Origin: Giardia intestinalis
Taxonomy: Eukaryota
Assembly (NCBI GenBank): GCA_000002435.2
Contig: CM018791.1
Length of the DNA: 64,000 bases
Direction: 5' to 3' (one strand)
Shown: in pieces, positions 24,148 to 51,198 of the stretch
Position numbering within the stretch: the first letter of the stretch is position 1
Layout of the letters: each line of letters starts with the position of its first letter
Notes under the pieces: model-generated
Databases searched by the model: none
What the model saw: the letters and a program-made list of their open reading frames with translations, nothing else
What the model was told of the DNA's origin: nothing
Made by a program: the position numbers and the translations under genes

Positions 24148-24226
24148 GGCATGGTCTACTTGCAGTTTGAAACACGGTCATAATACTTTGGATAATTTGG
24201 CAGGCATCCAAAAAATAAAACCGCAA

Positions 24227-25318: not shown

Positions 25319-26227
25319 ATGACGTCCACTGTTGCTCAGATATGCTCGGATCTCAAGGGGGCTATCGACAAAAAAGACGAGCTTCGAATTGCCTTCATTG
25401 CCTCTGAATATTCGTCGCCGAGTCGTCTTAAAATCGCGCAGAGCTATGAAGCAACCTACAAAACCCCGATCACTGAAGCCATCAAAAAGTCCCTGAAAGG
25501 AGGAACTGCCGAGGATTTACTGGTGAATATGTGGGTCAGTAGACATGAGCATCGCGCAGAGCTGATAAATAAAGCCCTAGGCGGTTCCAGCGACGAAGAG
25601 GCGATTCGCGAACTGGTGTTTCTCTGCAATCCTGAAGATTGGCACGAGACCGCGTCTGTTTATAACCAAAAGTATCAGAAGATCATGCAGGACGCCGTCA
25701 CAAAGGCGATTGGAAGCAAAAGTCATTGGGCAAAGCTTGTGGCAGGTTGGATGGAACACAAACGTGAAGATAGGGGGTCGGTTGAAAACGATGTCAAGTA
25801 TTTGAAGGAGCTCATAGACGCACCCGTGACGGACGGAAATGCGTTAGCGCAATTCTTTGCCAGCACAACCCCTGATGAGTACACTCAGATAGCAGACAAG
25901 TTTTGCGAAGAATATAATTTAAGCATTGATCAGGCTCTTGTGAGGCCGCTAAAGGAGAACGAAGACGATCTGGAGGCATATGCTGCTGCCCACTTTGCGC
26001 TCCACGGGCTTCCCGTCTTGGCGGCCCAACTCATCAACAAAGCATGCAGACCCAAGAACGGAAACGAGCGAAGTATCTGCAGAATAACAACCCTCATGGT
26101 TGATCAGTGCTTGGCGGCAAAGTATGCGTATAAACTCTATGGAGACATGGGGGCAGACCTGTCTCGCTGCTTTGACGAGCGAATGGCCCCTATTTTGCGC
26201 ACGCTATGGCGCGTCACAGATGCATAG
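25319..26227 (+). CDS. Alpha-giardin (annexin-like), array copy 3
   Basis: A 302-aa paralogue with the same aaaaaataATG start context as copy 1. Confidence 0.85.
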   Translation: MTSTVAQICSDLKGAIDKKDELRIAFIASEYSSPSRLKIAQSYEATYKTPITEAIKKSLKGGTAEDLLVNMWVSRHEHRAELINKALGGSSDEEAIRELVFLCNPEDWHETASVYNQKYQKIMQDAVTKAIGSKSHWAKLVAGWMEHKREDRGSVENDVKYLKELIDAPVTDGNALAQFFASTTPDEYTQIADKFCEEYNLSIDQALVRPLKENEDDLEAYAAAHFALHGLPVLAAQLINKACRPKNGNERSICRITTLMVDQCLAAKYAYKLYGDMGADLSRCFDERMAPILRTLWRVTDA

Positions 26228-27235: not shown

Positions 27236-27242
27236 GTTTACT
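27236..27242 (-). promoter_or_regulatory. AGTAAAC polyadenylation signal overlapping the stop codon of the minus-strand membrane-protein gene
   Basis: The minus strand reads cAGTAAACa, with the TAA stop (27238-27240) embedded in the motif. Confidence 0.55.
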
Positions 27243-30198: not shown

Positions 30199-30270
30199 TA
30201 TGGGCAAAACTGTTTGTAGAGATGAGGATGGGTTTGCTTTTTATTTTTCTCTGAGTATTTCTACTCTACC

Positions 30271-33200
30271 ATGCCTCCTCTGGCCCGTAGAGACCTTACC
30301 ATTCCTGCAGCCCTGCGCGCTATCTCTCGACAAACAGGGCACCGCATCTCATGTGATGAGAAGCGTGCGAAGTCAAGCATCTCTCAGTTTCGCAGCCACT
30401 CCCCTCAACCGTCATACCTTGCATCGGAAGCCCGTCTCAGTGGATACAAAAGTATATTTAAGGCGCAAAATCCACCGAAAGTCCTTTCCAGTATTGATGC
30501 TTTTCTTCGTCCGAACGAAGAAAAGAAAGAACCCATCTCCCCGCCATCAGAGGCGGTCATAGGCTCGCCAAGGATGTTTACCATGAGCCCAAAGTTTGCC
30601 AGAAGTAAGGCACTTGGCATAGATCCCCGCTCTCTAGCGCCCTCAGACAATATTTACTATAAAGCAGCCGAGTTTCCCAGTCAAAATGCAGAGTTCTACA
30701 GCAATCAGCCACCACCCATCACAAGCAGCCTCCCAGATACAGCATACAGCAAGGCGGTTCATCCTCCGACAACCGAGGACGGAATCCGACGTGTGGGCAG
30801 CGTCATGTCTGTGTTGCGGCCAACAGATGCGGCTCCCCGACTAGAAAAGGCGCAAGCAGCAGACTTCCTTTTAGAACAACTCATAGAGAACTCGGTTCAG
30901 ATCCTGCACGGGCTCGGACTCAGTAGGATTTATGAAGCAAACCAGACCCAAAATTGGTATGAATGTGAGGTAATTGCAAAAATGGGTGATAAGTTTGAAG
31001 TGTACTTTCCTGCTATCAACCATAAGAAGATAGTAACATTGAAGAACCTAATATTAAAGCAAATTACGATCACACAGGCCTCTGATGTTACTCTTCCTAT
31101 GTTGCCAAACTACAGTTCGCAGAACACCAACTCAATGGCTGCAATCACTAATGCAATACCCACAGTTCCTGAGGCACAGAGTTTAGCACACGCTCCTTTC
31201 TCACCTCCCTCTGAACAGAGAGACAAGGGCACAGTTGCAGACTCCGCACACATGGCCTCATTCAGTACACTTGCTGATAAGCCAGCGGTTGTTCTTCCTC
31301 CAAGAAAAAAATCCAGACCAGCTCCTCACACCGCTAGTTCTGACTCACATTACCAGTCAGTGCCCATTACCTTAGATGATATAGCAGAAGCAACAGACTC
31401 TCAGCAGATCAATCTGTTTGATGAATCTTTTGATAACTCATCTTTTACCCACGTAATCACACAACCCTATGTTCATGTAACGGTATCTCCCTGTATGCCC
31501 TGCATCTCTCTGGAGCCACCTAGCAGTATGAGCGCATCGGAATGCACAGTAAGAAGTGATATTCAACCCGCACCAGAGCTTGAGGAGCCCGGCTGTGCTA
31601 ACCTTTCCGTCATGGCAGATATGCTCAGTGATCTTATTAATGAAATCACACCAGCGTATAACACGTCACTATTTGGGAAGCGCCCCTCCTCCTGTCGACT
31701 GAATATCACGGACGCTCAATCTGATCCCGATGCAGTCCCTTCAAATATGTACAGGGGACATGCAAATCATACTGGTGCTCCATTTGATTGCGTAGAGTTG
31801 TATGAGGCCACTGAGCAGCCAAACAACGCTAACACTACTTTTGAGTGTACAGATTTCCTTGAGCAGGTGCTGAATAGCGCTAGTCCAGAGGTAAACAATG
31901 ACCCCAAGGAGTCATCTCTTACGGCGAACATTGTTCTCACCGATGCTAAAGGCCCACCAGATATATTCCTTTCCAACGACACAACGACTAGCAAGACCGA
32001 TCAGTTTGAAATCACACTTAAGCCATTGGCTGCACCAAAGGAGCAAGACACACTCTGTACATATACCCCCATACAGCAGCTCCCGCTGACACCCTCAAGG
32101 AACAAGCCTACCAGAACCATTGACTTAGTGTCTCTTCTGGGGATAACAACGCACACAGAGCTTATCAATGTGTTCCTGGAGTGTATAGATCACTTCACTC
32201 TCAAAGACCGCTTTGCAATGGCTGTTCGCTATCTGTCTTCGGAAATTCTTCACCGCAAGGTCCAAAACCACCAGTATTTAAGTATATTTACCACTTCCAT
32301 CATAGCAGCACTACTGGAGCTACGATTGCCCCACACAAGCCGTGCATCATATACGATAGACTGCGTTACGGATTACCGCGAGGCACAAATAAGATTGGAT
32401 AAGGTGCGCTTCAAATGCAACGCCGATCGCCTCCAGGCACTTCAGAATCTTGCACACGAAAAAGAGCTGCTTTACAAAAAGCTCTGCCTCACCTTTCAAA
32501 CTAAGAATCTGACTACCAGCTCTGCTGTCGAGTTGTGCTCCATCGGAATCAAATCTGCTCAACCTATCTTAAACCACATCAGAACGAGCAAGCTAACCCT
32601 TCATCTGGAGTCACTAGATCCCCCTGCTTTCAACTTCCAGCAGACAATGGCAGATGCAGTCATGGACTACCTGGCCAATGCACAGACGACTGATCTTCAA
32701 ATCCAGCTTATTCAAGAGGCCTCTATCAATACCTCTTCCCCTATTCACTGGTGTCACACATATCTTGCTAGCTTTTTATGGAACACATCCAAATATTACC
32801 TCACTGCTCAAAACACTTCTATAGTCAACTACATGGCACAAACGGCTGCTGATCGTCGCTTGATGATGGAGCGGGGAATAGCTGCACTATCTAATATCTC
32901 GTACCTGAGTGCAGATCGAGCGATGTTTCTACTTTTCCGACAACTTACAGCTACCATCGAAGACTATATCGGATATCTGACGCTTACGCCGGATCTCCTT
33001 TTGGTGACTGGGATTCCGTTTTACCCAAAGGTCTCGCCGGATATTTTAGGGTCCATTGTTTTCACAGAAGACTCTGAACAAAGGGAAAAGCGACTAGTAA
33101 CGGAAAATGGCGTCTCCCTTGATCCTGATCAAAAGGTAGTGATGTTCGACGGATACTCTCTCAAGAAAAGACTTGGCTACCGGTTTTTTCCCGAGGTGCA

Positions 33201-36200
33201 GATGGCAGCAAACAACACGGCCCACGGACATTCGGTTCCACTAACTAACATCATCAACGATACACCGGCGCGCTCGCTCTTCATCAGAATTGAAAAGGGC
33301 ATCAATTTCATGCAGAAACTAGACTTTTATCTAACAAACTCCTTCATTCTCCTCTTTGAGATCCTAATTCCATACATTCAAGAGACGCTGCTAAGTAATT
33401 ATGACCAGAAAATGCAAAGAAGTCTTGAGAAGATGATTAAGATGGAAAAGATTAACAGCAAGCGGCAAAAGCTGCCCGATGAGACCATTGAGAAATTGGC
33501 TATCCAGGCGCAGAGTTCCCTGAAACACGGATATGTAGAACTGGAAAAGCAAATAGAGGTATACATATATAGACTTTTCAACAAGGTTTTCGAGGATACA
33601 GTTTTTCCACTGTGGTTAGGGCTAATTCATAGCTTGTTGCACAGTATTGATGTACCAGAGAAATGTGATAGATATGCTCTTCATAGCGGTACAAGTGCAA
33701 TGTCAGAAGAGGTGGCATCAATACAACAGCACCACGAACATTGTAGTGCAGACGCGACCACCCTTGATGCTCTTACAAAGAACATGAAGGGCTCCACAGG
33801 GTCAGGAATCGACGAAAGCACTCTCCGTGCCACAGATCTTTGCACTGAGCGCACGGCATCATTTTTGCAGATGCCTGAATCAGTAGAACTGGATTCAGAC
33901 TCGGCGCCTTCTTCAGTACTGGTAAGTGGGATGAATGTGGACGCAGACAACCTCCTACTCTCACACGTTTCCGCAATGCGTGGATGCAATTTATCTTCCT
34001 CACTTCAAAGTGGGCCATTGGTGCTTACTAAGTTATTTACCCCAGAGATCGCCAACTTTTTTCTACAACTGCAGGAGAAGTTTGCTAATATAAAGCAGAA
34101 ATACCAGCAGGTGTCTAGCATACTATTCACCACTCCTTACACCCGGCCAATCTTCGAAAGCTTAGATTTGGATCTAAACTACTTTCAAGCAGATATGGCG
34201 CAAAACTCTTTGGACACGGCCAAGGAGTCAATAGAGCATATTCTTAACGTGCTTTCAACGCTGGTAATACATGTTATCTTTGAAACGAACAGCTATGGGC
34301 TCATCAGTAATATCGCTTTCGATCCATCTTCGGACTCTATTTATTCCGGTTTACTCTGCTTTATCTTTGATTTGGTGGACTTTTACTCGGCCACACCGAC
34401 CCTCGTGAACGTCCTCCTCAATCGCCGGGTCAATGCGCAGGTAGACATTGTTGACCTCATAGCAGACTCAGCTGGAATGGGTGTCAAGCGGCCTCATGTA
34501 AGGGGTGGCAGGGAACATGCAGTGTCAGAAGCAATCCAGGGACCAACGTACCTATATGATAACGAGCCTGCACTTGATAACGATCAGCTTGTCTCACGAA
34601 GTGTTATTGGCATGAACACGACACTGCTGAGACCGCTGGTGAGTCCCGACACGAAAGATATGTCTGCAAACTCCTATCTCGATGTGGCAAAAGATGTGGT
34701 AGACTCCTTTGTAATCGAAAACTGGAATATCTTCAAGCGAGAATCAGTCTATTCTGAATACATCAAAATGTTTTTTGATTTGGACATAACTTCTTGCACA
34801 CAGAGCTATCAGCTGCATTCCTCTCAGCCCCCATGCGCTTCAAAGAACCCCAAAAAGGCTCCTGTCCATGCACAAAATGCTTCTGCTATAGATCCTTTTG
34901 AAACTGCTGATCTAAAAATCCCTCATGCAATTACAAAACGAAAGCGGCAGCTATCTCGTGTAACCAGTCGATTGCGCAACGATCCGCCAGCTAGTGGCCT
35001 CAAGCTGATGAGCGTAGCAAAGCTAGCCCTCACAAACATGTCTATCTACTTAAAATCACTACAGAACGACTTCTCGACATTCTATCACGCCAATCTTTTG
35101 GCACTACGGGATCTATTTAATGAAGCCTATCTCTTTCCGCGCGAAGTCTACACAGGTTCTAAAACCATGCTGTCTCTCTATTCACTATTCAGATCTAAGC
35201 TCAAGGCTCTAAGGAAGAATCATACCAAACAGATCAATGGTAGGCTGGCCAAAGAACTAGGGCTGTCCACAGATGTCAAGGACGACGTCGAGAGTAGAAA
35301 AATACCAATAGAAGATATGGTTGCTTCTGCTGAGGTCGTCGTTTCGGAAACGGGTGCTGTCTCTCATCCCTCCATTGATTCCTCACACTTTTACCTCGAC
35401 GAAACCTCTTGTAGAGATTACTTTCTACCTATACACCACCCCATTGCTTCCTACCTACAGGGTGACATGATGGATAAGTTCCTATTTACAACAGAGCCTG
35501 CCGAGCACTCATCACGGAAATACGAGGAAGAGCTTCGTAAATCTGTCGCAGCGAACCGTACTGGGGCCTGCCATGCACGAAATCTTATCTTTGACGAACT
35601 TCTACTCTTCACTGGATACCTGCGGCAGCCTGCAGTTGTGACTGCTCTTTGCCAATTCTATATCCCAGGCGACAAGCCGCCAGAGCTTCTGTCTAAACAT
35701 ATTATCGATATTACCAATACATCCTCTATCATCACACGTATTCTAAGCAACATCTACGGCTTGTCTGAAAGCTATTATGCCGTGACTGCTTTGCCTCCGG
35801 TTTGTTTCTACGGTACCATTAAGATTGATTACAGCAATTATTTGGCAACGGTCGCCCGACAGGCTCATGAGCTCTATGTACTCTATCTAAATCGACTTGA
35901 CGACTATTGCAGACTAATACACGAATGTGGTGTAACATGTATAGAATATATTACAAAGAACTTAATGAACACGCATTTCGATTCGGCAGCTTCTCTTGGC
36001 GCGGTCTACTTTATTTTCAAGAACTTTGCCACATTCTATCCTAAATGGCGCGATTACTATGCATGGTTTAACGATGTCTCTGTCTGCCTGGGAAATATGA
36101 TAATTGATGGCAGGAGAGCTGCTCTTCTGAATGAGAAGCTCTTATACTATCGCACGCAAGGGTCACTTATGCTCATGAAGACATTTAAATCCATGGAAAA

Positions 36201-45200: not shown

Positions 45201-48200
45201 ACCAAGCAGTAAAAACAGTGACTCGTTTGATACCACCTCCACATCGGCAGCTGCAATTTCACCTAGAGATCAGAGGGCCTCTGACATCAAATCATCTCAG
45301 GTTCCATCTCTTAGTGTTAAGTGGCTCAAGCCACCTATGGTGCAGCAGAACCCTGAGGTAGATGAGCACACAGAGAGCGCAGTAAAGCTGCCTGCTGTTG
45401 TATCGTCCCTTCTTAATAAGGACGTTGGTACCAAATACTTAGCCAAACTGAGTAGCCTCACAGGGCAAGACTATTTCGGAGTCCACACAATGGAGCTAAG
45501 GAACATTTTGGCAGAGGCTCACCTTTCTCCCATGCACATACCGACCACCCTGTTTGTCCCTTCAGGGCTTCTTAGCTACGCTGATTTTATCCTTCTAGCT
45601 AAGTCTTTACCTGGTGTTCTTGATGCTCTCCCGATAGACAGTCGTGTTCACCCAGTAGACAAAGACTCCATTTTATTGGTCGATATAGCTGCTGCTTGCG
45701 GATTAACAGATAGGGCACTTCCACCAGTACTCCAAACAATGAGCGTTACCGATAGATTTCTCACGGCCCTAAGGGCAGCTACGTGTGCGGCGATGGGTAT
45801 GCCTCCATCTGCGGCATATCCTCGAATCTTTGAACGCTTCAAGAAGCAAGCATTTTCGGGCATAGGATCCAGTTTGGAATCTCCGCTTTACCTACCTAGT
45901 GGACGCTTATCAGATACGACTATCATGCCGCAGCACATTCTGTCTACACACCCTCTCCTGGCTATACCGCGATGGCACTTTCACATAAACATCCAGACAC
46001 AAACCCTTATTCAGTATAAAACATCCATGCGAACAAGGACCGAATTTCACCCCGAATACGTCCCATATAACAAATATCCCCATCAATTTAATACCGTTAT
46101 TTTGGCAATCCCTCTCAGCCTTGCAGTGAGTTGCAATCTCCTCACTATGGTTGCTAACTTCCTTTATCCGGGGTCGGGAGAAAACAGCTGGATAAACAGG
46201 GAAGATCAAAGTGATTTTCTATCCGACTTCAGCTCCATTTCTAAACTCGGATTGGTCACCACAAGAACATATTTATGTTTTGTGAGCTGTACCATGCAAG
46301 TGATTATATTCGACAACTACTGTTTGCAAGCTGCTGTGCGCAAGGACATTCTTGCCATACTCCCACCTCATTTGGACGTAGTGCACTTTCATGCAGGCTT
46401 AAGCATGCACAAAGATATTGCTTCCATAACACAAAGTCCGTTGATGCAGCACAGGCTGTCAATTCCCATCCTGGCTTTGCCACCAACAGCCACTATAACA
46501 ACCCAGCAGAAAACGGTGGAGATATCGGAACAGTTGGCTGAAATGCGTGTATACATTGTAGCATATTATCTATATGACACGCTGGTGACACAGTTTTCAA
46601 GTTTCTCCATTCCATTCAGCAATAGCGTCGAATCTTCGGGTGAACTGGACACCGAACACGCCAACATGGATGTCAATCAAAGGACTCTGACAGCCTACTC
46701 TGCTCAGCGTAGCACCAAAGACTCAACATTGCACTCGGACGAGTCTTCAAATTACGTGGACTCGGAGATCAGAAGCCTGCGTTTACCTTCACTCTTGTCC
46801 TGTCCATCCTCTGCGAGGTCCAAGCGCTCTGTACACAATGATTTTCAAGATAAGTATAAGCACGCTGCTACTGTGTCTGGAATCCACGCTAGATCGATCA
46901 AATCTATTTCTAAGTTTATCCCATATTCAAACATTAACGATTTTATCCTGATAGTACGCCATGTATACCGAAACTTGAGAAGCTACTATGCTTCTAAGTT
47001 GCATGACATATCTCTCTTTCAGCAGCAATCTGTCAATTTAACAAAGCTAGCAAAGCATGGAAGCATACAAACACAGGAGACATTAACAAGAACTGCGGAA
47101 AATATCGCGCAATTTGCAGCAACTATTGTCCCAGAAGAAGACTTAGATGAGGAGAAATACAAGGAGTCAACAAAGGCACTCCACGAAGCAGAGAAAAGGC
47201 TTGCAACAATTACGCAAGAACTTACTGATGCTGAAGCGAAGGTGAAGACTCAAAAAGAGAAGCTGAAGAATAGCATAGAGGGAAGTTGCGCTGCTGTCAT
47301 GTACTTTGGAGACTCTAAGCTTGCCAGCTATGTGAAGGCGTTGCTGGCAGACCCGGCCAAATACCGCAACTTTGCTGAATTGCTACATAGAATCCCGGTC
47401 ATTTCTTCTGCAGTGGAGACTGTCAGTATTACTCCATGTGCTGCCTTACCCATTGCTGACTTTTGGAACATTGTTGCAGCTGAGGTTTTCAGCTCATGTG
47501 AGCGCCTCTATTCCCTCTTGGTTGGCTTCGACCAAGAAAGGGATGTGCTGGACCCCATAACCACGATAGATAGCTCTGCATTTAACGGCATTGAGACGAT
47601 CGTCTTCACTTGGTATATGGAAACCATAGAATACAGACGCTTTAAGGACGAATGTGTTGCTCAGTTCAAGCTGGAAGAGCTACGGAATAACCACGTTAAC
47701 CAGCAACACATCGTCTCAACCCTTGCAGCAGAAAATAGATTGCTTCAACAGACCTGCCAAAATACAGATAAAGCACGCAACATCAGCAGTTCTCAGTTGG
47801 ATCTTCTAGAAGCTCAGCTGTGCGACCTTAAGGAGTTGTTCCAAATAGAGAAGGATACCATAGGTATGGTTGTTAAGCACATTCCATCTATGGTCACTGA
47901 GGAGCGGCGGATGCGACAGATGCACAATCTCAGTTATGTTCACGGTGTCATTGTCGCTGCAACCGTGTATTTCGGAATTGGCTTAACCAGCATCTGCATT
48001 GATATTTTATCTAAAGCGAGTGGAACTTGCTCTTCAGAAGAGTGCTGTGCATTTTGTAGCATTCTCGATCTACCCCTCTGTTCGTGCTGCAATTGCTGTC
48101 TATGTTTTTGCGATTGCAAGTATGTGATGTCAGACACGGGTGCTACATTTCTGGTCAAAGCAGATGTTTTTAGTGAGCGTTCCATCTGTCGCCACATGAA

Positions 48201-51198
48201 ACGGAAAGACCAAGTTGTATCTCAGATGTTCCTTCTGCTGCGTAGCGAGTTCTCTCGCCAGCGTCTTTTGAAGTACAAGCTGCAGACAGACCAATTTCGC
48301 GTTCTGGAATTTGCGAGTCTCCTTATTCTCCACAAGGTCTTCAAGCGCCCGATCTTTGCTAGTAAGTATGCAATCCGTGATCTACCGCTTCTTGCAGATT
48401 GCATGGGTGCCTTAGATCCGTTTCTTTCCGTCCATACAGTCAGGGTGGCCCAGAATCTTTCTGCGTTTTGCTCTGCATTCCGAAAGGCTCTCCTAGACGT
48501 GCATACAAGAGTTATAGTCTTTGAGATAGCAGACACATGCCCTGCAATCCTGGATATTCTTGTCGCCTTCACGGTAGTTTATCCCTCTAAGGTTGAGACT
48601 GTGAATGAGGACACAACTTATAGCATACAAACTTTCTCCGTAAAGACTCCACGGCCCTTATCTCAGTATCGCTTCATAGTGACATTCGATATTGACGGTG
48701 CCAATCCTTTGGTGTATTGCATTGAGCCTGTAATTGTCAATCCATCTATTTTGCAAATGGATGTGTTAGAATTTCCATGGTATGCCTTGTTACAGAATGC
48801 TAGTATCTCTGCTGGCACCCTTTCTATGCACCGACCTTTTAGCTCCAAGGACGCTGAGGCCTCTATTCTTCTGCATAAGGATACAATACTTCAGCAGATT
48901 ATTTGTCACTACATTAATGGATACCACGACCGAGTTTTGGAGTATAGAACTGCTATTGTGGAGCTTGAAAGTGTAGTGGAGAGACAGCTACAGGTGTGCA
49001 TTGAGCAGTTGCATGAAGTGGAGAGTACCAGCTATACAGCAAAGGCATCAGTAGTCTATACGTGCTACAGGACATACCTTGACCAGGTGGACACACTATC
49101 TGCACTGTCCGATAAAAACAAGGCTATTCTCACAGAGCGGGCAAAGATGGAGAACGACGAACAGAGCAATCTCAATGTTGCCACCAGAATTATTATGGCC
49201 ATGAGCAACTATCTGCTCCGCTTGGCCCTGAGCTACCCTGCTGTACTTTATCCTCTGATATGTATACAATCCAAACCGTTCGCACATGACACAGATTATG
49301 TAGATTGCTCCCTTTTATTTTTACTCGAGATTGCTGATAACTTGTATAGAGCACTTCCACTATCAATCTTTCTCCCTGCCCTCATAATGGTTATAATAGT
49401 TTCTGAAATTACTCGGGGAACATTAACTCTGGATGACTATCAGCTCTTTAGCGCTGTTATGCTATCTGTAGGCAAGATACCCACTATCAACAGGGAAAAT
49501 ATTGATGTCGCCTCTCCATTCGGTCCCTACTATGCCGTTCAGTTTGATTCTTCTGGAAAGATTGTGCTTACATCAAAGGAGGCCTACTGCCTGGCTATGC
49601 TCCGAAAAGCTCATCCAAAAGTAGATTTTTCCATATTCACCACACCACTGGTGGGATCAGGAGAGGAGCCATTGAGTAGTGCACACACTACAAGGAACAA
49701 TCTCATGCTATACATCTTACGACAATACTCCGAAAAGAGCCCCAAACACATACACAATTTTCTTAGGACACTGGGAGAGTCCTTCTATTGCAAAATCATG
49801 GGTCTAGTATGTTATGGAACCGCCGGAGTGCAGACTACCACCAGTTCTAGACTAGCTTGTGCATTCAAGATTAAGCTTCCTGGGCCATCTATTGGACTAA
49901 TAACGAGAGTTGCTCAATCTGCCTCACCGTCCAGGGTCGTGCTTCTGCTCACTGCCAACACCGTACAGACTGCATATGCGCTATGGGCAACAGGCTTGTT
50001 TACTATGTCAGCTTCTGTGCTAGATGCAAGTACCCCCCAGGGGGCAGGATTGATTCTGTACCCATGTGTCCCGATACATGCTTTATCACGGCTTACAAAG
50101 GGATCTGTTGGAGTAGCTGATATTAGTTTGGGAATAACGACAATCTCGGACATATGTTGTCTGCTATCGCAATTGTCCGCGTTAAGCACAGCGCATCAAG
50201 CAGATAACCTATTAGTATGGTCTGATCGTCCGTTGGGGCTTCGTGCGCTGGTGGCCGCCATCACCGTGCCTCTGAGAATGCGCAAGAGGAGTTCATGGCT
50301 CTTGTCTCCATTGACACAGGTAGTGTGTACGGTTCATACCGACCAAGATCGCTTGATGGAGAGGCTTATAGTTGCTTCTATAGCAATATGCATGCGCTAC
50401 CCCCTTCTATTTAATAAGCTGTCGTTTTTCTTCAACCGTTCTGAAGCTATTCTCTCTTCAAACCAGTGGTATTTTCAATTAGTTCGAGCACGCTGCAATC
50501 ACGTGGTTACAAACATGAAGCAAATACAAAAACTCTGTATTAATGAAACAAACACACTAGAATGCATTGTGAGGTTTGCGCATGGGTTCTCATCAATTAT
50601 AGAAAAGGCAAGCCTGCATTCTTTCGTCTATGCTTTTGACAAGCTGACCCTAGGGCTACATGATGATGCTTATAGGCAACCCCTTGCCTCTCTCTTTACT
50701 TTCATGACCTTGCTACTGTTGCAGTTAAGCCCGAATAGTGATGAAGATGGTTTTGTTTCTGCTTCTGAAATGGAGCAATCAGTGACGTGTACTGGGCAAA
50801 GCCTTTCTGCCCCGATTCTGGATATGGCAATATTAAGCTCTAACGATGCTCTGATTAGTGATTCTGTTGGTGGAACAACCTCCGATGCCTACTCTTCTCG
50901 AGACGACTTTGCCACTTACTCTGATAGAATAATTCGATGTATGCTAACATTCACTACCCTTCCAGATGCGCGACTACTTACATCCTCAGTCCATCAGTTG
51001 CGCCAATCCCCTGTTCAAGCATCAACCCTGGCACATTCTCTCCTGGAGGAACTAGTTGCTTCATCACAACAAGATCAGCAGACTTCTCCAGAGAAACGTC
51101 TAGTTACACCTGTGCAGGCTCAAAACTGCGGTGTATACCTCTTACAAGACGATTGCGTGGTAGCTCCTCTGAATGAGAAAAACGCTGCCGATGCATAG
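30271..51198 (+). CDS. Giant hypothetical protein (6,975 aa) with no recognisable catalytic motif
   Basis: A single uninterrupted 20,928-nt ORF with the ATG at 30271 behind an AT-rich leader. It has no Walker A/P-loop, so it is not dynein or midasin-like. It is L/S/T/I-rich and non-repetitive, with a few hydrophobic segments and one poly-Cys cluster. Confidence 0.8.
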   Translation: MPPLARRDLTIPAALRAISRQTGHRISCDEKRAKSSISQFRSHSPQPSYLASEARLSGYKSIFKAQNPPKVLSSIDAFLRPNEEKKEPISPPSEAVIGSPRMFTMSPKFARSKALGIDPRSLAPSDNIYYKAAEFPSQNAEFYSNQPPPITSSLPDTAYSKAVHPPTTEDGIRRVGSVMSVLRPTDAAPRLEKAQAADFLLEQLIENSVQILHGLGLSRIYEANQTQNWYECEVIAKMGDKFEVYFPAINHKKIVTLKNLILKQITITQASDVTLPMLPNYSSQNTNSMAAITNAIPTVPEAQSLAHAPFSPPSEQRDKGTVADSAHMASFSTLADKPAVVLPPRKKSRPAPHTASSDSHYQSVPITLDDIAEATDSQQINLFDESFDNSSFTHVITQPYVHVTVSPCMPCISLEPPSSMSASECTVRSDIQPAPELEEPGCANLSVMADMLSDLINEITPAYNTSLFGKRPSSCRLNITDAQSDPDAVPSNMYRGHANHTGAPFDCVELYEATEQPNNANTTFECTDFLEQVLNSASPEVNNDPKESSLTANIVLTDAKGPPDIFLSNDTTTSKTDQFEITLKPLAAPKEQDTLCTYTPIQQLPLTPSRNKPTRTIDLVSLLGITTHTELINVFLECIDHFTLKDRFAMAVRYLSSEILHRKVQNHQYLSIFTTSIIAALLELRLPHTSRASYTIDCVTDYREAQIRLDKVRFKCNADRLQALQNLAHEKELLYKKLCLTFQTKNLTTSSAVELCSIGIKSAQPILNHIRTSKLTLHLESLDPPAFNFQQTMADAVMDYLANAQTTDLQIQLIQEASINTSSPIHWCHTYLASFLWNTSKYYLTAQNTSIVNYMAQTAADRRLMMERGIAALSNISYLSADRAMFLLFRQLTATIEDYIGYLTLTPDLLLVTGIPFYPKVSPDILGSIVFTEDSEQREKRLVTENGVSLDPDQKVVMFDGYSLKKRLGYRFFPEVQMAANNTAHGHSVPLTNIINDTPARSLFIRIEKGINFMQKLDFYLTNSFILLFEILIPYIQETLLSNYDQKMQRSLEKMIKMEKINSKRQKLPDETIEKLAIQAQSSLKHGYVELEKQIEVYIYRLFNKVFEDTVFPLWLGLIHSLLHSIDVPEKCDRYALHSGTSAMSEEVASIQQHHEHCSADATTLDALTKNMKGSTGSGIDESTLRATDLCTERTASFLQMPESVELDSDSAPSSVLVSGMNVDADNLLLSHVSAMRGCNLSSSLQSGPLVLTKLFTPEIANFFLQLQEKFANIKQKYQQVSSILFTTPYTRPIFESLDLDLNYFQADMAQNSLDTAKESIEHILNVLSTLVIHVIFETNSYGLISNIAFDPSSDSIYSGLLCFIFDLVDFYSATPTLVNVLLNRRVNAQVDIVDLIADSAGMGVKRPHVRGGREHAVSEAIQGPTYLYDNEPALDNDQLVSRSVIGMNTTLLRPLVSPDTKDMSANSYLDVAKDVVDSFVIENWNIFKRESVYSEYIKMFFDLDITSCTQSYQLHSSQPPCASKNPKKAPVHAQNASAIDPFETADLKIPHAITKRKRQLSRVTSRLRNDPPASGLKLMSVAKLALTNMSIYLKSLQNDFSTFYHANLLALRDLFNEAYLFPREVYTGSKTMLSLYSLFRSKLKALRKNHTKQINGRLAKELGLSTDVKDDVESRKIPIEDMVASAEVVVSETGAVSHPSIDSSHFYLDETSCRDYFLPIHHPIASYLQGDMMDKFLFTTEPAEHSSRKYEEELRKSVAANRTGACHARNLIFDELLLFTGYLRQPAVVTALCQFYIPGDKPPELLSKHIIDITNTSSIITRILSNIYGLSESYYAVTALPPVCFYGTIKIDYSNYLATVARQAHELYVLYLNRLDDYCRLIHECGVTCIEYITKNLMNTHFDSAASLGAVYFIFKNFATFYPKWRDYYAWFNDVSVCLGNMIIDGRRAALLNEKLLYYRTQGSLMLMKTFKSMENRSQSISQCYQKLISQLTLIDNWVLSTQDALFQRIREYIRLNTQAIALCDEAPAKFAQQYETFTRNFVFPRAVRNLHDKGDLLDITAVLKSIDSATCLPFLSSLSDCLRRREPSILQLFHRDTDASGIPIFRSVDFPAAFTECEDIAHHLILLCEALIRTRKDALALNMYPYNDKTLFPTDKAILDAITEDRNLSAIDAVIFYDKDVDTAKTRTARRDYFLKQLLDPGESLKLSSSTVDAILHPSTQQGPVLTRLRNLLPLLFLINKLVALYFDFLSNFEQWMNCTIGRLSLSDVKNFVVQVVITATIILETLRDSVPISELARTLLQFITKKRSQLQLFFILKSSLYKINFIQSPNAARNVCLSSFEAMEVVTNRLLLLSDLEPLRTNELGQLLGIIQANIDEFLCIDPRDLHVVDFYVRDLLKYNRSKYSDETKVKIFLEIVSNHECSIMRSYRIGLHRIRAERFQYIQSSLIQRALANKENRVNPDERLEFPCHFLVSRTGGFVLETTVLQPQVLEVVSKYASTSDQGTTQTAEKLPAASRKALYSFHSEELSGKLQDLTKVSMSDTLDASLEMYEEGRDTDSAKTVEPDEKLTMTAALAQKEGIVIRGPIRNAAINASQCFSTGIFYEACTFGYLAYQYFGLFVLDQDEKDNKQPNVDLGKSSRKCGNNIAAETRRYNSSLDRIKLLGSDEPVIYSRVSADYSPLNSVYLKQNYPSFLDKSHFLSLCYHADFTLVGDKRGKLLFLEKKLTIKVPRKLFELDSQLQYDLLGLQGPLSHTTEQRPAAPTCMALKRLTIIPDINLHIFTILCAVLQNYVTFDSLASHLFDLDAIHQLVSLQWRVYLLMSRCIFIISYVRAHANKLFYYVDMQTICLQARGLPVLVPAVHTRAVTHKFLTLLYKTQTLLSTAQSNGATMSNIASRKVLRDTIFAQIKDLIEFEGEIVAANMPFLQHSGTLRDSANFPDSYMLSRQFLVSSFIESIIYDNFYSPVICSADKLTECKGAVVCSLPARVITACSTVLSNFGFHRMQFVIYKIVSLTNSRSFYIFAGVLFGMDLHEASGRQQEYLRFCMPILLDRLPHCFTILTYSMLQTTISASLSWYVQYYSDILANDALNCDIALCILRSIPLATGVLAILRLFHVLVSDSTKPGVNSLEKLKTLRSALATLTYVLSILLRYQIITVPSTYMSLVHRSVCISIDKYLDPSTSVCCHTHFTIDFEALEEQFPYNHQRHDMPITKAVTFEQHAPTEDSYTIPCFDMLHGSLSKDFKREAQKDYMAALLHYNKHHIKHATILGPCTVLPFSYLYIKDTSPLEVQISSILQETFTSVRYRLFRDILISLSNTLSDIIEDCVETPPVLTLPPSEKQIQPPDTASPTVNPYVSHGFVTSIFVSGGDESLFRLLDDFNIFAFQLLGDYLHTYNRDFITSMRFFQTRASFLGTQQAFTPMRVYSGVTPVCAYKGHVFLDASFPDGMFAEFSTLPIYSEILDKLLFYKLLFIVSPINDGPACNSPLKSFFSAYVPLITGHPVVFDQPCLVDEFSIESMTDKEATYFRSLLCMLVLGAIIVITSEVATRHNWATYMRLHEERVRQDLPGSLVFILPGLVKTYHEHNIEEPMYVLAEKALSILALYGLGQESNHLIRYRDGFVGTDKVQQYVHDTDLSIKIERLAAKFSQLSVGSQSLSNAMLRSVFSNTPNVLSAAPLPYLLRNYLLLIAGTLDDSEARMVLTAVFVSTFGTSLLDKDESGQDAMAFLTELTERYAASSYYFLDSDMKEVPASANPPMTYTVPFALMFSYAFSSLQYIRASHTELRFFSEPACLTESEKRLNQEFHLSTSNMRLCGLLSEFYLQFFGRDILATFPFSTTGFYFLFNLVYIILLILTQSVSIGPIGLHVIDLPLCNTLYGMVTAAIRYLVSDIIIMELRFQNQCRFASKRLNIADPVEGEESSISHPSFVEVTDVSQITDVATGRVTYRPYTIYFMALKVINPTQDTTMLYEILLSAPRPSTTAIVIMSPCLRLLQSFTGYHLHSQHSLLNPKLLLQYQTREIRYYHTFKLSSISTSESTDVSYSQFEDLITSFSITQLQRLMQMKAMRFFIQLSPLVLAFCADACLLTEPRDYYAAYCNFVYLCSKYCIITVVPVIQNGFETASLYGRWETSDPCSNSISDLERLLGSRMKGKEQATPQATVYEAQTSTKDFEQLASSIVGSAVTTFPGAMSTCDSAIDKCMATSFMHHTAQGSVTEQGHADIKRPKENNVFELFNISQNKLLCTMPIPHDSVRQCLIFSQLEIRCNPAFFTCFTYCNQNYSELVAKLALIIFGLAFSACKLKTIVPAGSNSEVFRRMSAFLASSLNIDDLYSDSQDVLFDFHEQAYKQCREALLMDGPQTAYSVFLSRYFLSTNDEESLTDTNEAYSTAYNETHGAISVDRYVYVRILNSMLPTAQTIAAKGDAFLYSLLLPSFSMEPMTYEGLRLVEETISRFSDGDFDTLLTLLNFSTVYLHFTPALYPKRYILHQGTTKRPSSTLYSPVGVQEDRPGPFNEIVDVGYLTAYPISSYDAELRMLALSIVAAMFCKIPVVLFSVFSPIFNQSALRAATALFEEDTSVLIQDDKYRENMQLQTSADEHIKFGTFSYNTYLIHSVCTDADLIQLLARLRSMCQFVSCNSQTYLVSPCRLIVLIRAHASFLYYPTLLTLLGQKVQMIDNTGVMQLVTLRNILFLVDVAHGPPKDMLRIYQVSHLYTVRTDVSLPRTRRDRLCTQGKHYGHYLLAKIFGFRAVSRQLENFLLDRNFMYTERISASISTIWLMEQYYGVSRSNDHTLNDTISAIIYNSIEQAATQYHEQYPEIYSALYGATTKQRLMLKLADAPAASSTLEALTCRQLLTHTPGQGVLLKQLIDAFNINLLKILINRSLYSHFMNEYAERVGGRKNRKSRQHTTARQASAISRKSGASRSCCGSRASSLTVLEETIEEGTFFTPTIDLSYYQSVKSKRLEDKSDGPSSKNSDSFDTTSTSAAAISPRDQRASDIKSSQVPSLSVKWLKPPMVQQNPEVDEHTESAVKLPAVVSSLLNKDVGTKYLAKLSSLTGQDYFGVHTMELRNILAEAHLSPMHIPTTLFVPSGLLSYADFILLAKSLPGVLDALPIDSRVHPVDKDSILLVDIAAACGLTDRALPPVLQTMSVTDRFLTALRAATCAAMGMPPSAAYPRIFERFKKQAFSGIGSSLESPLYLPSGRLSDTTIMPQHILSTHPLLAIPRWHFHINIQTQTLIQYKTSMRTRTEFHPEYVPYNKYPHQFNTVILAIPLSLAVSCNLLTMVANFLYPGSGENSWINREDQSDFLSDFSSISKLGLVTTRTYLCFVSCTMQVIIFDNYCLQAAVRKDILAILPPHLDVVHFHAGLSMHKDIASITQSPLMQHRLSIPILALPPTATITTQQKTVEISEQLAEMRVYIVAYYLYDTLVTQFSSFSIPFSNSVESSGELDTEHANMDVNQRTLTAYSAQRSTKDSTLHSDESSNYVDSEIRSLRLPSLLSCPSSARSKRSVHNDFQDKYKHAATVSGIHARSIKSISKFIPYSNINDFILIVRHVYRNLRSYYASKLHDISLFQQQSVNLTKLAKHGSIQTQETLTRTAENIAQFAATIVPEEDLDEEKYKESTKALHEAEKRLATITQELTDAEAKVKTQKEKLKNSIEGSCAAVMYFGDSKLASYVKALLADPAKYRNFAELLHRIPVISSAVETVSITPCAALPIADFWNIVAAEVFSSCERLYSLLVGFDQERDVLDPITTIDSSAFNGIETIVFTWYMETIEYRRFKDECVAQFKLEELRNNHVNQQHIVSTLAAENRLLQQTCQNTDKARNISSSQLDLLEAQLCDLKELFQIEKDTIGMVVKHIPSMVTEERRMRQMHNLSYVHGVIVAATVYFGIGLTSICIDILSKASGTCSSEECCAFCSILDLPLCSCCNCCLCFCDCKYVMSDTGATFLVKADVFSERSICRHMKRKDQVVSQMFLLLRSEFSRQRLLKYKLQTDQFRVLEFASLLILHKVFKRPIFASKYAIRDLPLLADCMGALDPFLSVHTVRVAQNLSAFCSAFRKALLDVHTRVIVFEIADTCPAILDILVAFTVVYPSKVETVNEDTTYSIQTFSVKTPRPLSQYRFIVTFDIDGANPLVYCIEPVIVNPSILQMDVLEFPWYALLQNASISAGTLSMHRPFSSKDAEASILLHKDTILQQIICHYINGYHDRVLEYRTAIVELESVVERQLQVCIEQLHEVESTSYTAKASVVYTCYRTYLDQVDTLSALSDKNKAILTERAKMENDEQSNLNVATRIIMAMSNYLLRLALSYPAVLYPLICIQSKPFAHDTDYVDCSLLFLLEIADNLYRALPLSIFLPALIMVIIVSEITRGTLTLDDYQLFSAVMLSVGKIPTINRENIDVASPFGPYYAVQFDSSGKIVLTSKEAYCLAMLRKAHPKVDFSIFTTPLVGSGEEPLSSAHTTRNNLMLYILRQYSEKSPKHIHNFLRTLGESFYCKIMGLVCYGTAGVQTTTSSRLACAFKIKLPGPSIGLITRVAQSASPSRVVLLLTANTVQTAYALWATGLFTMSASVLDASTPQGAGLILYPCVPIHALSRLTKGSVGVADISLGITTISDICCLLSQLSALSTAHQADNLLVWSDRPLGLRALVAAITVPLRMRKRSSWLLSPLTQVVCTVHTDQDRLMERLIVASIAICMRYPLLFNKLSFFFNRSEAILSSNQWYFQLVRARCNHVVTNMKQIQKLCINETNTLECIVRFAHGFSSIIEKASLHSFVYAFDKLTLGLHDDAYRQPLASLFTFMTLLLLQLSPNSDEDGFVSASEMEQSVTCTGQSLSAPILDMAILSSNDALISDSVGGTTSDAYSSRDDFATYSDRIIRCMLTFTTLPDARLLTSSVHQLRQSPVQASTLAHSLLEELVASSQQDQQTSPEKRLVTPVQAQNCGVYLLQDDCVVAPLNEKNAADA

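What the first reader, a model, noticed from the sequence alone, without database searches (positions are those of the whole stretch)
30271..51198. Uninterrupted 20.9-kb ORF encoding a 6,975-aa protein with no recognisable enzymatic signature
One third of the window is a single ORF. I could find no P-loop, kinase, dynein or AAA motif and no obvious internal repeat architecture. It is therefore not a dynein, midasin or nebulin-type protein. Only weak cues are visible. Near residue approx 230 there is a Tudor/chromo-barrel-like strand pattern (NWYECEVIAKMGDKFEVYFPAINHKKIVTLKNL). There are three or four isolated hydrophobic segments and one Cys cluster. A protein of this size that cannot be placed in any family by eye is the most plausible carrier of undescribed biology in this window. 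Possibilities include a giant cytoskeletal or membrane-tether scaffold or a bridge-like lipid-transfer protein.
Basis: partly seen in the sequence, partly recalled or inferred. Interest (0 to 1): 0.8.

Follow-up and report, generated by a model that had tools for sequence, protein, structure and literature searches.

The report
Giant P-loop-less dynein-like protein of Giardia
The 21-kb gene is real, conserved and expressed in Giardia, and it most likely encodes a very diverged dynein-type heavy chain that has lost all its ATP-binding motifs, not a wholly new kind of protein.

Summary
The ORF is exactly as described: window 30271-51198 (+), 6,975 aa. It is Giardia intestinalis GL50803_16544, annotated "hypothetical protein". 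Intact orthologues of 6,207-7,055 aa exist in assemblages A, B and E, in G. muris and in one unidentified Giardia-like organism. dN/dS is 0.03-0.16 along the whole length. RNA-seq reads and a few MS hits exist.

Sequence methods place it nowhere: Pfam, profile searches of PDB sequences, a full HMMER scan of 1.84 billion proteins, and hhalign against real dyneins all gave nothing.

An AlphaFold model of aa 5551-6750 (low confidence) gave dynein heavy chains as the top 36 Foldseek hits in the PDB (E down to 2e-6, about 1,000 aligned columns). The first non-dynein hit has E 0.29.

The layout fits a dynein motor's C-terminal half. A coiled coil, a 120-aa tip and a second coiled coil lie about 1,085 aa from the C-terminus, followed by an α/β core and a helical hairpin.

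Residues 3351-4550 weakly resemble AAA+/P-loop NTPase folds. No conserved Walker A motif exists in any family member.

Best reading (about 0.65): a dynein-derived, catalytically dead scaffold restricted to Giardia. BLTP and HEAT readings are unsupported.

The parts
30271..51198 (+). Complete ORF of GL50803_16544 (6,975 codons plus stop)
   Evidence: ORF listing and translation. Exact database identity. Purifying selection in every 500-codon block, dN/dS 0.03-0.16 against the assemblage B orthologue.
30208..30270 (.). 63-bp divergent intergenic region with a T-rich tract directly upstream of the ATG. It is shared with the minus-strand ORF 27238-30207.
   Evidence: Sequence read; ORF ends. Short AT-rich promoters are typical of Giardia (my own knowledge, not tested here).
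30271..32070 (+). N-terminal S/P-rich, probably disordered region (aa 1-600)
   Evidence: Composition and translation. Invariance among assemblages A/E/B falls to 0.53-0.56 over aa 301-600, against 0.74-0.79 over aa 1-300, which include the conserved module below. The region aligns poorly with G. muris and P0025.
30853..31065 (+). Small conserved module (aa 195-265): a helix FLLEQLIENSVQIL followed by the beta-strand pattern WYECEVIAKMGDKFEVYFP...VTLKNL.
   Evidence: W229, E233, F242 and P247 are invariant in all five family members. No Pfam hit. The profile against PDB sequences gave nothing significant; the best fold-related hit was an 'SH3 fold domain' at E 0.84.
35668..39570 (+). Most conserved part of the tail (aa 1800-3100). 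Fold unknown.
   Evidence: 0.83-0.91 invariant positions across aa 1801-2500. This region recovered the G. muris and P0025 orthologues (E 4e-28 and 3.5e-68) and nothing outside Giardia. No PDB sequence match.
40321..43920 (+). aa 3351-4550: region with weak AAA+/ASCE (P-loop NTPase fold) resemblance. Putatively the degenerate first AAA modules.
   Evidence: AF2 model mbde0ff9ed1ff, mean pLDDT 34.8. In Foldseek against the PDB no hit reaches E<=1e-3, but the top 50 are almost all AAA+/P-loop ATPases: Rad24-RFC 6e-3, MutS, ATAD1, Msp1, NSF, ORC, Vps4, Cdc48, FtsH, Rix7.
40678..41070 (+). Putative AAA1-like alpha/beta core (aa 3470-3600), starting at LFIVSPINDG. The position where a P-loop would sit reads GHPVVFDQPCLV.
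   Evidence: This is the best-predicted stretch of model 2 (pLDDT 50-69), with alternating strand/helix elements. V3479, P3481, G3485, G3505, P3507 and V3508 are invariant in the family. P0025 reads VVVTPLTDGY here. The resemblance to dynein's TPLTDRCY is my recollection and is statistically untested.
47068..47310 (+). Coiled-coil arm 1 of the stalk-like hairpin (aa ~5600-5680)
   Evidence: AF2 long helix at tile residues 75-129, pLDDT 60-72. Heptad score 0.81 at aa 5627-5671.
47311..47670 (+). About 120-aa helical tip domain between the two arms (aa 5681-5800). It sits where a dynein microtubule-binding domain would be.
   Evidence: Four short helices at tile residues 134-249. The same CC-tip-CC layout is present in P0025 and G. 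muris. Microtubule binding is inferred, not shown.
47671..47940 (+). Coiled-coil arm 2 (aa ~5801-5890)
47899..48015 (+). Hydrophobic helix after arm 2: EERRMRQMHNLSYVHGVIVAATVYFGIGL (aa 5877-5915)
   Evidence: E5878, R5882, L5887, A5896 and G5902 are invariant in the family. The resemblance to dynein's ERW...GD.LLAAAF.SY.G.F junction (seen in P0028) is by eye, and hhalign did not recover it.
48031..48120 (+). Cysteine cluster SSEECCAFCSILDLPLCSCCNCCLCFCDCK (aa 5921-5950), an insertion just after the stalk
   Evidence: Eight Cys (C5926, C5929, C5937, C5940, C5943, C5945, C5947, C5949) and F5928 are invariant in all five family members. Its function (zinc site or multiply acylated cysteine string) was not tested.
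48427..48687 (+). alpha/beta core (aa 6053-6139), at the position of a dynein AAA5 large domain
   Evidence: AF2 strands and helices E503-509, H513-525, E529-536, H541-553, E565-589, pLDDT 55-68. It lies within the roughly 1,000 columns aligned to dynein heavy chains.
48844..49155 (+). Long helical hairpin (aa 6192-6295), at the position of the dynein strut/buttress
   Evidence: AF2 helices 642-664, 668-702 and 705-745; this is the best-predicted part of model 1, pLDDT 60-78.
49156..51195 (+). C-terminal about 680 aa (aa 6296-6975), at the position of AAA6 and the C-terminal domain
   Evidence: Mixed helix/strand prediction with pLDDT below 50. It is included in the Foldseek alignments as far as aa 6750. 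The last 175 aa are the least conserved part of the protein, 0.37-0.39 invariant.

Best explanation
GL50803_16544 is a dynein-heavy-chain-derived giant protein, a 'pseudo-dynein', found only in the genus Giardia.

Its C-terminal ~1,400 aa keep the architecture of the second half of a dynein motor. An antiparallel coiled-coil stalk carries a ~120-aa tip domain. It is followed by an AAA5-like alpha/beta core, a strut-like helical hairpin and an AAA6/C-terminal region. Upstream, from about aa 3470, lie degenerate AAA+-like modules broken up by poorly conserved insertions. These are preceded by a ~3,400-aa tail of unknown fold.

No family member has a conserved Walker A motif, so the protein very probably cannot bind or hydrolyse ATP as dynein AAA1-AAA4 do. 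I therefore infer that it does not step. It would act as a static scaffold, attaching through the stalk tip to microtubules and through the long tail, and perhaps the invariant cysteine cluster, to another structure or to other dyneins.

Shown: the gene is real, conserved, under purifying selection and expressed; it lacks P-loops; its C-terminal model resembles solved dyneins. Inferred: common ancestry with dynein, microtubule binding, non-motility, and any cellular location.
For: - Reality and constraint. The ORF is confirmed and identical in independent assemblies. Orthologues of 6,957-7,055 and 6,207 aa are single uninterrupted ORFs. dN/dS is 0.03-0.16 in all 14 blocks, with synonymous sites saturated.
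- Expression. RNA-seq gives 4,192 reads (FPKM 6.1) in trophozoites and 10,826 reads (FPKM 18.0) in cysts. MS hits of 4/3/1 appear in one GlActin pull-down replicate.
- Dynein likeness. Foldseek of the aa 5551-6750 model against 350,542 PDB chains returns only dynein heavy chains in ranks 1-36. They come from kinetoplastids, Chlamydomonas, Tetrahymena, human, bovine, Dictyostelium and yeast, with E 2e-6 to 0.17 (22 of them at E<=1e-3) and 424-1,150 aligned columns (about 950-1,150 for the best-scoring matches). The first non-dynein hit has E 0.29. independently confirms the identity of several of these chains as DHCs.
- Negative control. The equally low-confidence model of aa 3351-4550 gave no dynein hit in the 50 matches listed and nothing at E<=1e-3.
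- Predicted element order. Long helix, four short helices, a 100-aa helix, a beta-alpha-beta core, then a long helical hairpin. The second arm ends ~1,085 aa from the C-terminus, against ~1,150 in human DYNC1H1 by my recollection of domain limits on the validated sequence.
- Upstream tile. Its hit list is coherently AAA+/P-loop-fold.
- Walker A. No conserved Walker A in five family members.
Against: - Every sequence-level test failed. Pfam on ten tiles and on the G. muris and P0025 halves gave nothing. Profiles against PDB sequences gave no dynein.
- hhalign of family tiles against 61 real dynein-1 CC2-AAA5 fragments gave best E 0.06-0.9. An HMM of those fragments hit only coiled-coil segments.
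- hhalign against validated human DYNC1H1 1866-4347 scored 15-26, the same as a reversed-sequence control at 16-30.
- Both AF2 models are poor: mean pLDDT 40.8 and 34.8, TM-scores about 0.1. Only local structural-alphabet similarity is shown, not a superposition.
- The upstream tile did not hit dynein itself.
- A six-module ring, a linker and a dynein-type tail were not demonstrated.
Confidence: 0.65

Rival explanations
1. A Giardia-specific giant scaffold with no common ancestry with dynein. On this reading, the coiled-coil hairpins and alpha/beta cores mimic the layout of a dynein C-terminal half, and the Foldseek matches come from analogy plus a poor model.
For: - No sequence similarity to dynein by Pfam, hmmsearch or hhalign. 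Scores equal the reversed-sequence controls.
- The models have low pLDDT and TM about 0.1.
- The family is confined to Giardia in a scan of 1.84 billion representatives.
Against: - Other large coiled-coil ATPases score five to six orders of magnitude worse than dyneins with the same model: SMC/MukB at E 0.4-0.6, Hsp104 at E 0.7.
- No huge helical protein appears at all in the 50 matches listed, for example HEAT kinases, huntingtin, midasin or RNF213.
- The alignments span about 1,000 of 1,200 residues, not just the hairpins.
- The positions of stalk, strut and C-terminus match dynein spacing.
- The upstream tile independently points to AAA+ folds.
Confidence: 0.25
2. An active but unorthodox dynein motor that binds and hydrolyses ATP through non-canonical sites.
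For: Strong purifying selection holds over the putative AAA region too, with dN/dS 0.09-0.14. The alpha/beta core at aa 3470-3600 is the best-predicted part of its tile.
Against: No Walker A-like motif is conserved in any of five family members. The position after the putative beta1 reads DQPCLV, QCVTLQ or ILADPE in the three lineages. Known dyneins with degenerate AAA1 are non-motile according to the DNAHX preprint.
Confidence: 0.04
3. A bridge-like lipid-transfer protein (VPS13/BLTP) or a HEAT/ARM solenoid scaffold.
For: Only its size and the lack of any annotation. The N-terminal 3,350 aa were not modelled, so a different fold there cannot be excluded.
Against: - No chorein_N, VPS13, BEACH or HEAT Pfam match even at E<=1.
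- No internal repeats.
- The N-terminus is S/P-rich and has no hydrophobic anchor.
- The 2,400 modelled residues are helical with small alpha/beta cores and have no long beta-groove.
- No such structure appears among the Foldseek hits.
Confidence: 0.03

Closest known systems
Canonical dynein heavy chains (axonemal inner- and outer-arm and cytoplasmic dynein-1/2). The best structural matches are 9y6s_5W/5X, 9e5c_6a, 8glv_Co (I1 beta), 6zyw_B, 7k58_C and 9dh5.
   Same: - A single giant polypeptide.
- A stalk-like antiparallel coiled coil with a ~120-aa tip, about 1,085 aa from the C-terminus.
- An alpha/beta core and a strut-like hairpin after the stalk.
- Foldseek ranks 1-36 are all DHCs.
- AAA+/P-loop-fold signal upstream.
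   Different: - No Pfam dynein domain and no profile-level sequence similarity.
- No Walker A in any module.
- About 2,100 aa lie between the putative AAA1 and the stalk, against ~1,280 in DYNC1H1.
- The tail is ~3,400 aa.
- An invariant cysteine cluster is inserted after the stalk.
- Total length is 6,975 aa, against about 4,000-4,700.
DNHD1 (the animal 'orphan' dynein heavy chain)
   Same: According to the DNAHX preprint, DNHD1 has a poorly conserved AAA1 site that lacks catalytic residues and has multiple disordered insertions in the motor. It is probably non-motile yet biologically required. The Giardia protein likewise lacks catalytic motifs and has poorly conserved S-rich insertions, at aa ~4900-5050 and 5440-5550.
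   Different: DNHD1 is still classified as a DHC by sequence, as class 'HD1' in Kollmar 2016 (PMC5100056). The Giardia family is not detectable by sequence. No orthology is implied, and the family was found only in Giardia.
DNAHX (non-motile DHC of sea-urchin sperm; bioRxiv 10.1101/2025.01.18.633724)
   Same: It is a precedent for a dynein heavy chain that evolved into a non-motile structural or regulatory subunit, with a degenerate AAA1 and insertions in the stalk/MTBD and AAA4.
   Different: DNAHX derives from the outer-arm alpha chain and is recognisable by phylogeny. The authors report it absent from protists. It still binds nucleotide at AAA1, whereas here the P-loop itself is gone.
Divergent or orphan diplomonad dyneins in published inventories (Giala_37985 and Giala_DHC in Wickstead & Gull 2007; 'orphan diplomonad dynein' in Kollmar 2016)
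   Same: They come from the same organism group. They are dynein-related genes that resist classification, and one has a tail that aligns to no known class.
   Different: Those were found by HMM or BLAST similarity to dynein motors, which this protein lacks. GL50803_16544 is not named in the main texts I could read, and the supplements are not held. I could not verify whether it is in CyMoBase.

Membership tests
Dynein heavy chain | An antiparallel coiled-coil stalk with a small globular tip (MTBD), inserted between AAA4 and AAA5 about 1,100 aa from the C-terminus | tested here: met
Dynein heavy chain | A stalk-AAA5-strut-AAA6 region that is structurally similar to solved dynein motors | tested here: met
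   Foldseek 3Di+AA ranks 1-36 of 350,542 chains are all DHCs, with E down to 2.1e-6, probability 1.0 and about 950-1,150 aligned columns. Caveat: mean pLDDT is 40.8 and TM about 0.1, so there is no global superposition.
Dynein heavy chain | Six concatenated AAA+ modules forming a ring | tested here: inconclusive
   One AAA5-like alpha/beta core is predicted. Tile aa 3351-4550 gives only weak AAA+/P-loop-fold hits, with best E 6e-3. Residues 4551-5550 were not modelled.
Dynein heavy chain | Walker A (GPxGTGKT-type) nucleotide sites in AAA1, and usually in AAA2-AAA4 | tested here: not met
   The regex [AG]x4G[KR][ST] gives no hit in the G. intestinalis A, E or B proteins or in P0025. G. muris has one hit (GTSHEGKS, aa 3374) that is not conserved.
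Dynein heavy chain | A sequence signature recognised by Pfam dynein models (DHC_N1/N2, AAA_6-9, MT, Dynein_heavy, Dynein_C) or by profile comparison | tested here: not met
   No Pfam hit at E<=1 on ten tiles, and none at E<=5 on three divergent C-terminal halves. hhalign and hmmsearch against real dynein sequences stay at background. No dynein appears in profile searches of PDB sequences.
Dynein heavy chain | A linker domain and a tail with dimerisation and intermediate/light-chain binding regions | not tested
Pfam and PDB-sequence searches of this part found nothing.
Non-motile dynein heavy chains (DNHD1/DNAHX type) | Degenerate AAA1 catalytic motifs plus insertions in the motor | tested here: met
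   No P-loop. Poorly conserved S-rich stretches lie within the motor-like region, and P0025 has a ~300-aa extra insertion.
Non-motile dynein heavy chains (DNHD1/DNAHX type) | Phylogenetic derivation from a recognisable DHC class (orthology to DNHD1 or to outer-arm alpha) | not testable with these tools
   There is no alignable sequence similarity to any dynein, so no tree can be built. The family was detected only in Giardia.
VPS13/BLTP bridge-like lipid-transfer proteins | A chorein_N domain and a repeating beta-groove, with an N-terminal hydrophobic anchor in BLTP1-type proteins | tested here: not met
   No Pfam match. The N-terminus is S/P-rich. The modelled 2,400 aa are helix-dominated, and no VPS13/BLTP structure appears among the hits. 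Residues 600-3350 were not modelled.
Tudor / chromo-barrel | A five-stranded SH3-like barrel recognisable by a family profile | tested here: inconclusive
   The module at aa 195-265 is conserved across the genus. There is no Pfam hit, and the profile against PDB sequences gives only non-significant hits, including 'SH3 fold domain' at E 0.84. It was not modelled.
Midasin/Rea1 and RNF213 (other dynein-like AAA giants) | An AAA ring without a microtubule-binding stalk, with a MIDAS or E3 module | tested here: not met
   No Pfam AAA_5, MIDAS or RING match. No Rea1 or RNF213 chain is identifiable among the 50 listed Foldseek matches of either model; model 2 does hit pre-60S entries that include a Rix1-Rea1 particle (6ylg_b, a 613-residue chain, E 0.15), whose chain identity I did not check. 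A stalk-like hairpin is present.

The most novel reading that the evidence does not exclude
A dynein heavy chain that has lost every nucleotide-binding loop, yet has been kept intact under strong purifying selection across the genus Giardia. It would have been repurposed as a passive tether.

On this reading the stalk tip binds microtubules. The invariant cysteine cluster at the base of the stalk, either a cysteine-string acylation site or a zinc module, together with the 3,400-aa tail, anchors it to a membrane or to a Giardia-specific cytoskeletal organelle such as the cytoplasmic axonemes, ventral disc or median body.

It could even be the hyper-diverged descendant of cytoplasmic dynein-1, which Kollmar (2016) reports as absent from Giardia but present in Spironucleus.
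Probability: 0.2. Interest if true: 0.8.

Novelty: new variant of a known kind. Interest (0 to 1): 0.55.

Why it matters
This protein is annotated only as 'hypothetical', and the papers and held supplements I could search give it no assigned function.

If it is a dynein derivative without any P-loop, it extends the short list of non-motile dyneins (DNAHX, DNHD1) to a deep-branching protist, and to a more extreme state in which sequence similarity is fully erased and all Walker A motifs are gone.

It would also show that dynein inventories built on sequence similarity miss members. Finally, it offers a concrete and testable candidate for a structural microtubule-associated giant in a parasite whose attachment and motility depend on unusual microtubule organelles.

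Tried and rejected
- **Pfam.** Ten overlapping 1,000-aa tiles at E<=1 gave only DUF6604 at E 0.2. The C-terminal halves of three divergent members gave nothing.
- **PDB sequence searches.** phmmer of both halves gave nothing. Profile searches with A4, A5, A2 and A7 gave no meaningful hit.
- **Word-index homologue searches.**
  - Residues 1976-6975 found only the G. intestinalis assemblage orthologues.
  - A three-lineage profile found nothing, not even itself, so that search was wasted.
  - A long dynein query timed out.
- **Full HMMER profile scan of 1.84 billion representatives.** Only Giardia-family proteins were found.
- **hhalign and hmmsearch against real dynein sequences.** All results were at background. 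My by-eye motif matches (TPLTD; ERW...AAF.Y.G.F) therefore remain unproven leads.
- **Transmembrane reading of the hydrophobic segments.** Rejected, because most are not conserved as such in the orthologues.
- **Literature.** No main-text hit for the gene ID. It is absent from the held supplements of the 2026 localisation atlas and of two omics papers.
Full report
**Observation.** The window holds one ORF at 30271..51198 on the + strand, with an ATG start and 6,975 codons. My translation has a single terminal stop, and the nearest upstream in-frame stop is at 30223. An open frame of this length cannot arise by chance: (61/64)^6975 is about e^-335.

The exact protein is public as Giardia intestinalis WB GL50803_16544 (XP_001706952.1, UniProt A8BHZ8), named only 'hypothetical protein'. 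The same 6,975-aa product is encoded in isolate DH and in several independent Logan assemblies. Neighbouring genes are typical of Giardia: a VSP, two alpha-giardin-type annexins, kinases, ankyrin, TFIIS and a sugar transporter.
- There is no Walker A motif.
- Self-BLASTP finds no internal sequence repeat.
- The quoted motif lies at aa 228-260.
- The Cys cluster lies at aa 5921-5950.

One count needs correcting. There are about twelve strongly hydrophobic 19-mers rather than three or four.

**Is it a real gene?**
- Orthologues of 6,960 aa (assemblage E, P15; 84% identity over the searched aa 1976-6975; 85% full length) and 6,957 aa (72% and 74% by the same two measures, from a Logan assembly, probably assemblage B by its divergence) are intact.
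- The 6,957-aa orthologue sits in a contig whose gene order and sizes match the window.
- Nei-Gojobori dN/dS between the window and that orthologue is 0.03-0.16 in every one of fourteen 500-codon blocks. Synonymous sites are near saturation. The whole length is therefore under purifying selection.
- A published RNA-seq table lists 4,192 reads (FPKM 6.1) in trophozoites, rising to 10,826 reads (FPKM 18.0) in cysts (PMC4807828 S1 Table).
- A GlActin pull-down MS table lists 4/3/1 hits in one replicate (PMC8552679).

**Relatives.** A full HMMER profile search used the best-conserved 1,200 aa (aa 1801-3000) against 1.84 billion representative proteins. It found three proteins:
- a fragment;
- a 7,055-aa protein from SRA run SRR31929897 (E 3.5e-68);
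- G. muris GMRT_10929, 6,207 aa (E 4e-28).

The two full-length proteins are each a single uninterrupted ORF, in a different gene neighbourhood from the window's. Full-length identity to the window protein is 26% and 23%. Nothing was found outside Giardia-like organisms.

**Sequence-based classification fails.** All of the following were negative:
- Pfam at E<=1 on ten tiles and on the C-terminal halves of three divergent members;
- phmmer and profile searches against all PDB sequences.

I noticed by eye two dynein-like motifs. One is VVVTPLTDGY in the SRR31929897 protein, at the start of a predicted alpha/beta core. The other is EERR...GVIVAATVYFGIGL directly after the second coiled coil. I therefore fetched real dynein-1 CC2-AAA5 fragments. 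I also validated a typed human DYNC1H1 1866-4347 against PDB entry 5NUG. Neither gave support:
- hhalign of family tiles against the 61-fragment dynein profile gave best E 0.06-0.9.
- hmmsearch with that profile hit only coiled-coil segments.
- hhalign against DYNC1H1 scored 15-26, no better than a reversed-sequence control at 16-30.

The motifs therefore remain unproven.

**Structure-based evidence.** AlphaFold2 on aa 5551-6750, with the five-sequence alignment, gave a poor model: mean pLDDT 40.8 and pTM 0.29. The predicted element order is nonetheless clear:
- a long helix;
- four short helices spanning ~115 aa;
- a 100-residue helix;
- after the Cys cluster, a beta-alpha-beta core (pLDDT 55-68);
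- a long helical hairpin (pLDDT 60-78).

Foldseek of this model against 350,542 PDB chains returned dynein heavy chains, and only those, in ranks 1-36. They include axonemal chains from Leishmania, T. brucei, Chlamydomonas, Tetrahymena, human and bovine. They also include cytoplasmic dynein from human, Dictyostelium and yeast.
- E-values go down to 2.1e-6, with probability up to 1.0 and about 950-1,150 aligned columns for the best-scoring matches.
- The next hits are short coiled-coil proteins at E>=0.29.
- SMC/MukB and Hsp104 score E 0.4-0.7.
- No HEAT-type giant, midasin or RNF213 appears.
- One search confirms that several of the matched chains are annotated dynein heavy chains.

TM-scores are about 0.1. 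What is shown is therefore collinear local structural similarity, not a global superposition.

The second model (aa 3351-4550, pLDDT 34.8) has its best-predicted stretch at aa ~3470-3580, with alternating strands and helices. Its Foldseek list has no hit at E<=1e-3 and no dynein. It is, however, almost entirely made of AAA+ and other P-loop-fold ATPases: Rad24-RFC at 6e-3, MutS, ATAD1, Msp1, NSF, ORC, Vps4, Cdc48, FtsH and Rix7. This result does two things. It serves as a control, showing that a poor helical model does not hit dynein by default. It also gives weak evidence for degenerate AAA+-type modules upstream.

**Anatomy and spacing.**
- The second coiled-coil arm ends ~1,085 aa before the C-terminus, compared with about 1,150 in human DYNC1H1.
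- The strut-like hairpin follows 300-400 aa later. The invariant Cys-rich insertion accounts for part of that extra distance.
- The putative first AAA core lies ~2,100 aa before the stalk, against ~1,280 in DYNC1H1. Several poorly conserved S-rich stretches lie in between.
- Multiple disordered insertions are also what the DNAHX preprint describes for DNHD1.
- Eight cysteines and one phenylalanine of the cluster at aa 5921-5950 are invariant in all five proteins.
- Most hydrophobic segments are not conserved as membrane-grade in the orthologues. They are more likely buried core elements.

**Interpretation.** The best-supported reading (confidence about 0.65) is a dynein-heavy-chain-derived protein that retains the stalk, AAA5, strut and AAA6 architecture and degenerate AAA+-like modules, but has lost all Walker A motifs. 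It should therefore be unable to run the dynein ATPase cycle. It would act as a static scaffold, probably attached to microtubules through the stalk tip.
- The main rival (about 0.25) is a lineage-specific scaffold that only mimics this layout.
- An unorthodox active motor is unlikely (about 0.04).
- BLTP or HEAT-type scaffolds are unlikely (about 0.03).

Two defining dynein features were tested and not met: P-loops and the sequence signature. I therefore do not file it as an ordinary dynein family member. I call it a dynein-like pseudo-motor.

**What is known.** Non-motile dynein heavy chains have precedents in DNAHX and DNHD1. Dynein inventories mention divergent or orphan Giardia and diplomonad DHCs (PMC2239267, PMC5100056). 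Those were found by sequence similarity, which this protein lacks, and the gene ID appears in no main text I could search. I rate it a new variant of a known kind. It is interesting for dynein evolution and Giardia cytoskeleton research, but it rests on low-confidence models and needs the structural and cell-biological tests listed under next steps.

Noticed in passing
window 48031-48120 (aa 5921-5950): The cysteine cluster SSEECCAFCSILDLPLCSCCNCCLCFCDCK has eight Cys invariant across all five family members, with a CxFC...CxxCxxCxCxCxC pattern. It follows directly after a hydrophobic helix. It looks like either a zinc module or a palmitoylated cysteine string. Neither reading was tested.
   Followed up: partly
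window 30001-52000: GC skew is negative in every 2-kb bin covering the giant ORF (-0.06 to -0.12). It is +0.14 in the bin just upstream and turns positive again downstream. The coding strand is therefore persistently C-rich over G.
   Followed up: no
window 52517-54250 (+): The downstream gene GL50803_16543 (577 aa) is a coiled-coil protein. In isolate DH the same protein is named 'Chromosome segregation protein SMC'. Pfam gives only sub-threshold coiled-coil family matches, so that name looks like an over-annotation.
   Followed up: partly
window 24167-25120 and 25319-26227 (+): Two tandem annexin E1-type genes (alpha-giardin-like), 317 and 302 aa.
   Followed up: no
window 56529-58949 (-) and 60530-61684 (-): Two GC-rich islands, at 0.60 against about 0.47 elsewhere. 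They coincide with a variant-specific surface protein gene (Pfam VSP, E 1.5e-84) and a protein kinase ORF with a GTG start in the listing. An ankyrin-repeat ORF follows at 62384-63937.
   Followed up: partly
window 27238-30207 (-), 13449-17348 (-), 11953-13428 (+), 21097-22242 (+): Further ORFs of 989, 1,299, 491 and 381 aa have no Pfam match at all. The 989-aa ORF is transcribed divergently from the giant gene, across only 63 bp.
   Followed up: no
L002 6001-27168 (Logan SRR31929897): A 7,055-aa orthologue comes from an unidentified Giardia-like organism. It is intermediate in divergence (26% identity) and carries a ~300-aa S/P-rich insertion before the stalk. It also carries a canonical-looking TPLTD motif at the putative AAA1 start. 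The organism was not identified.
   Followed up: partly
PMC4807828 S1 Table (GL50803_16544): Transcript level is about 3-fold higher in cysts (FPKM 18.0) than in trophozoites (FPKM 6.1). This is a hint that the protein matters during or after encystation.
   Followed up: no
The word-index homologue search with a three-lineage alignment returned no hit at all, not even the query's own cluster. The single-sequence search had found that cluster. This looks like a tool sensitivity quirk rather than biology.
   Followed up: no
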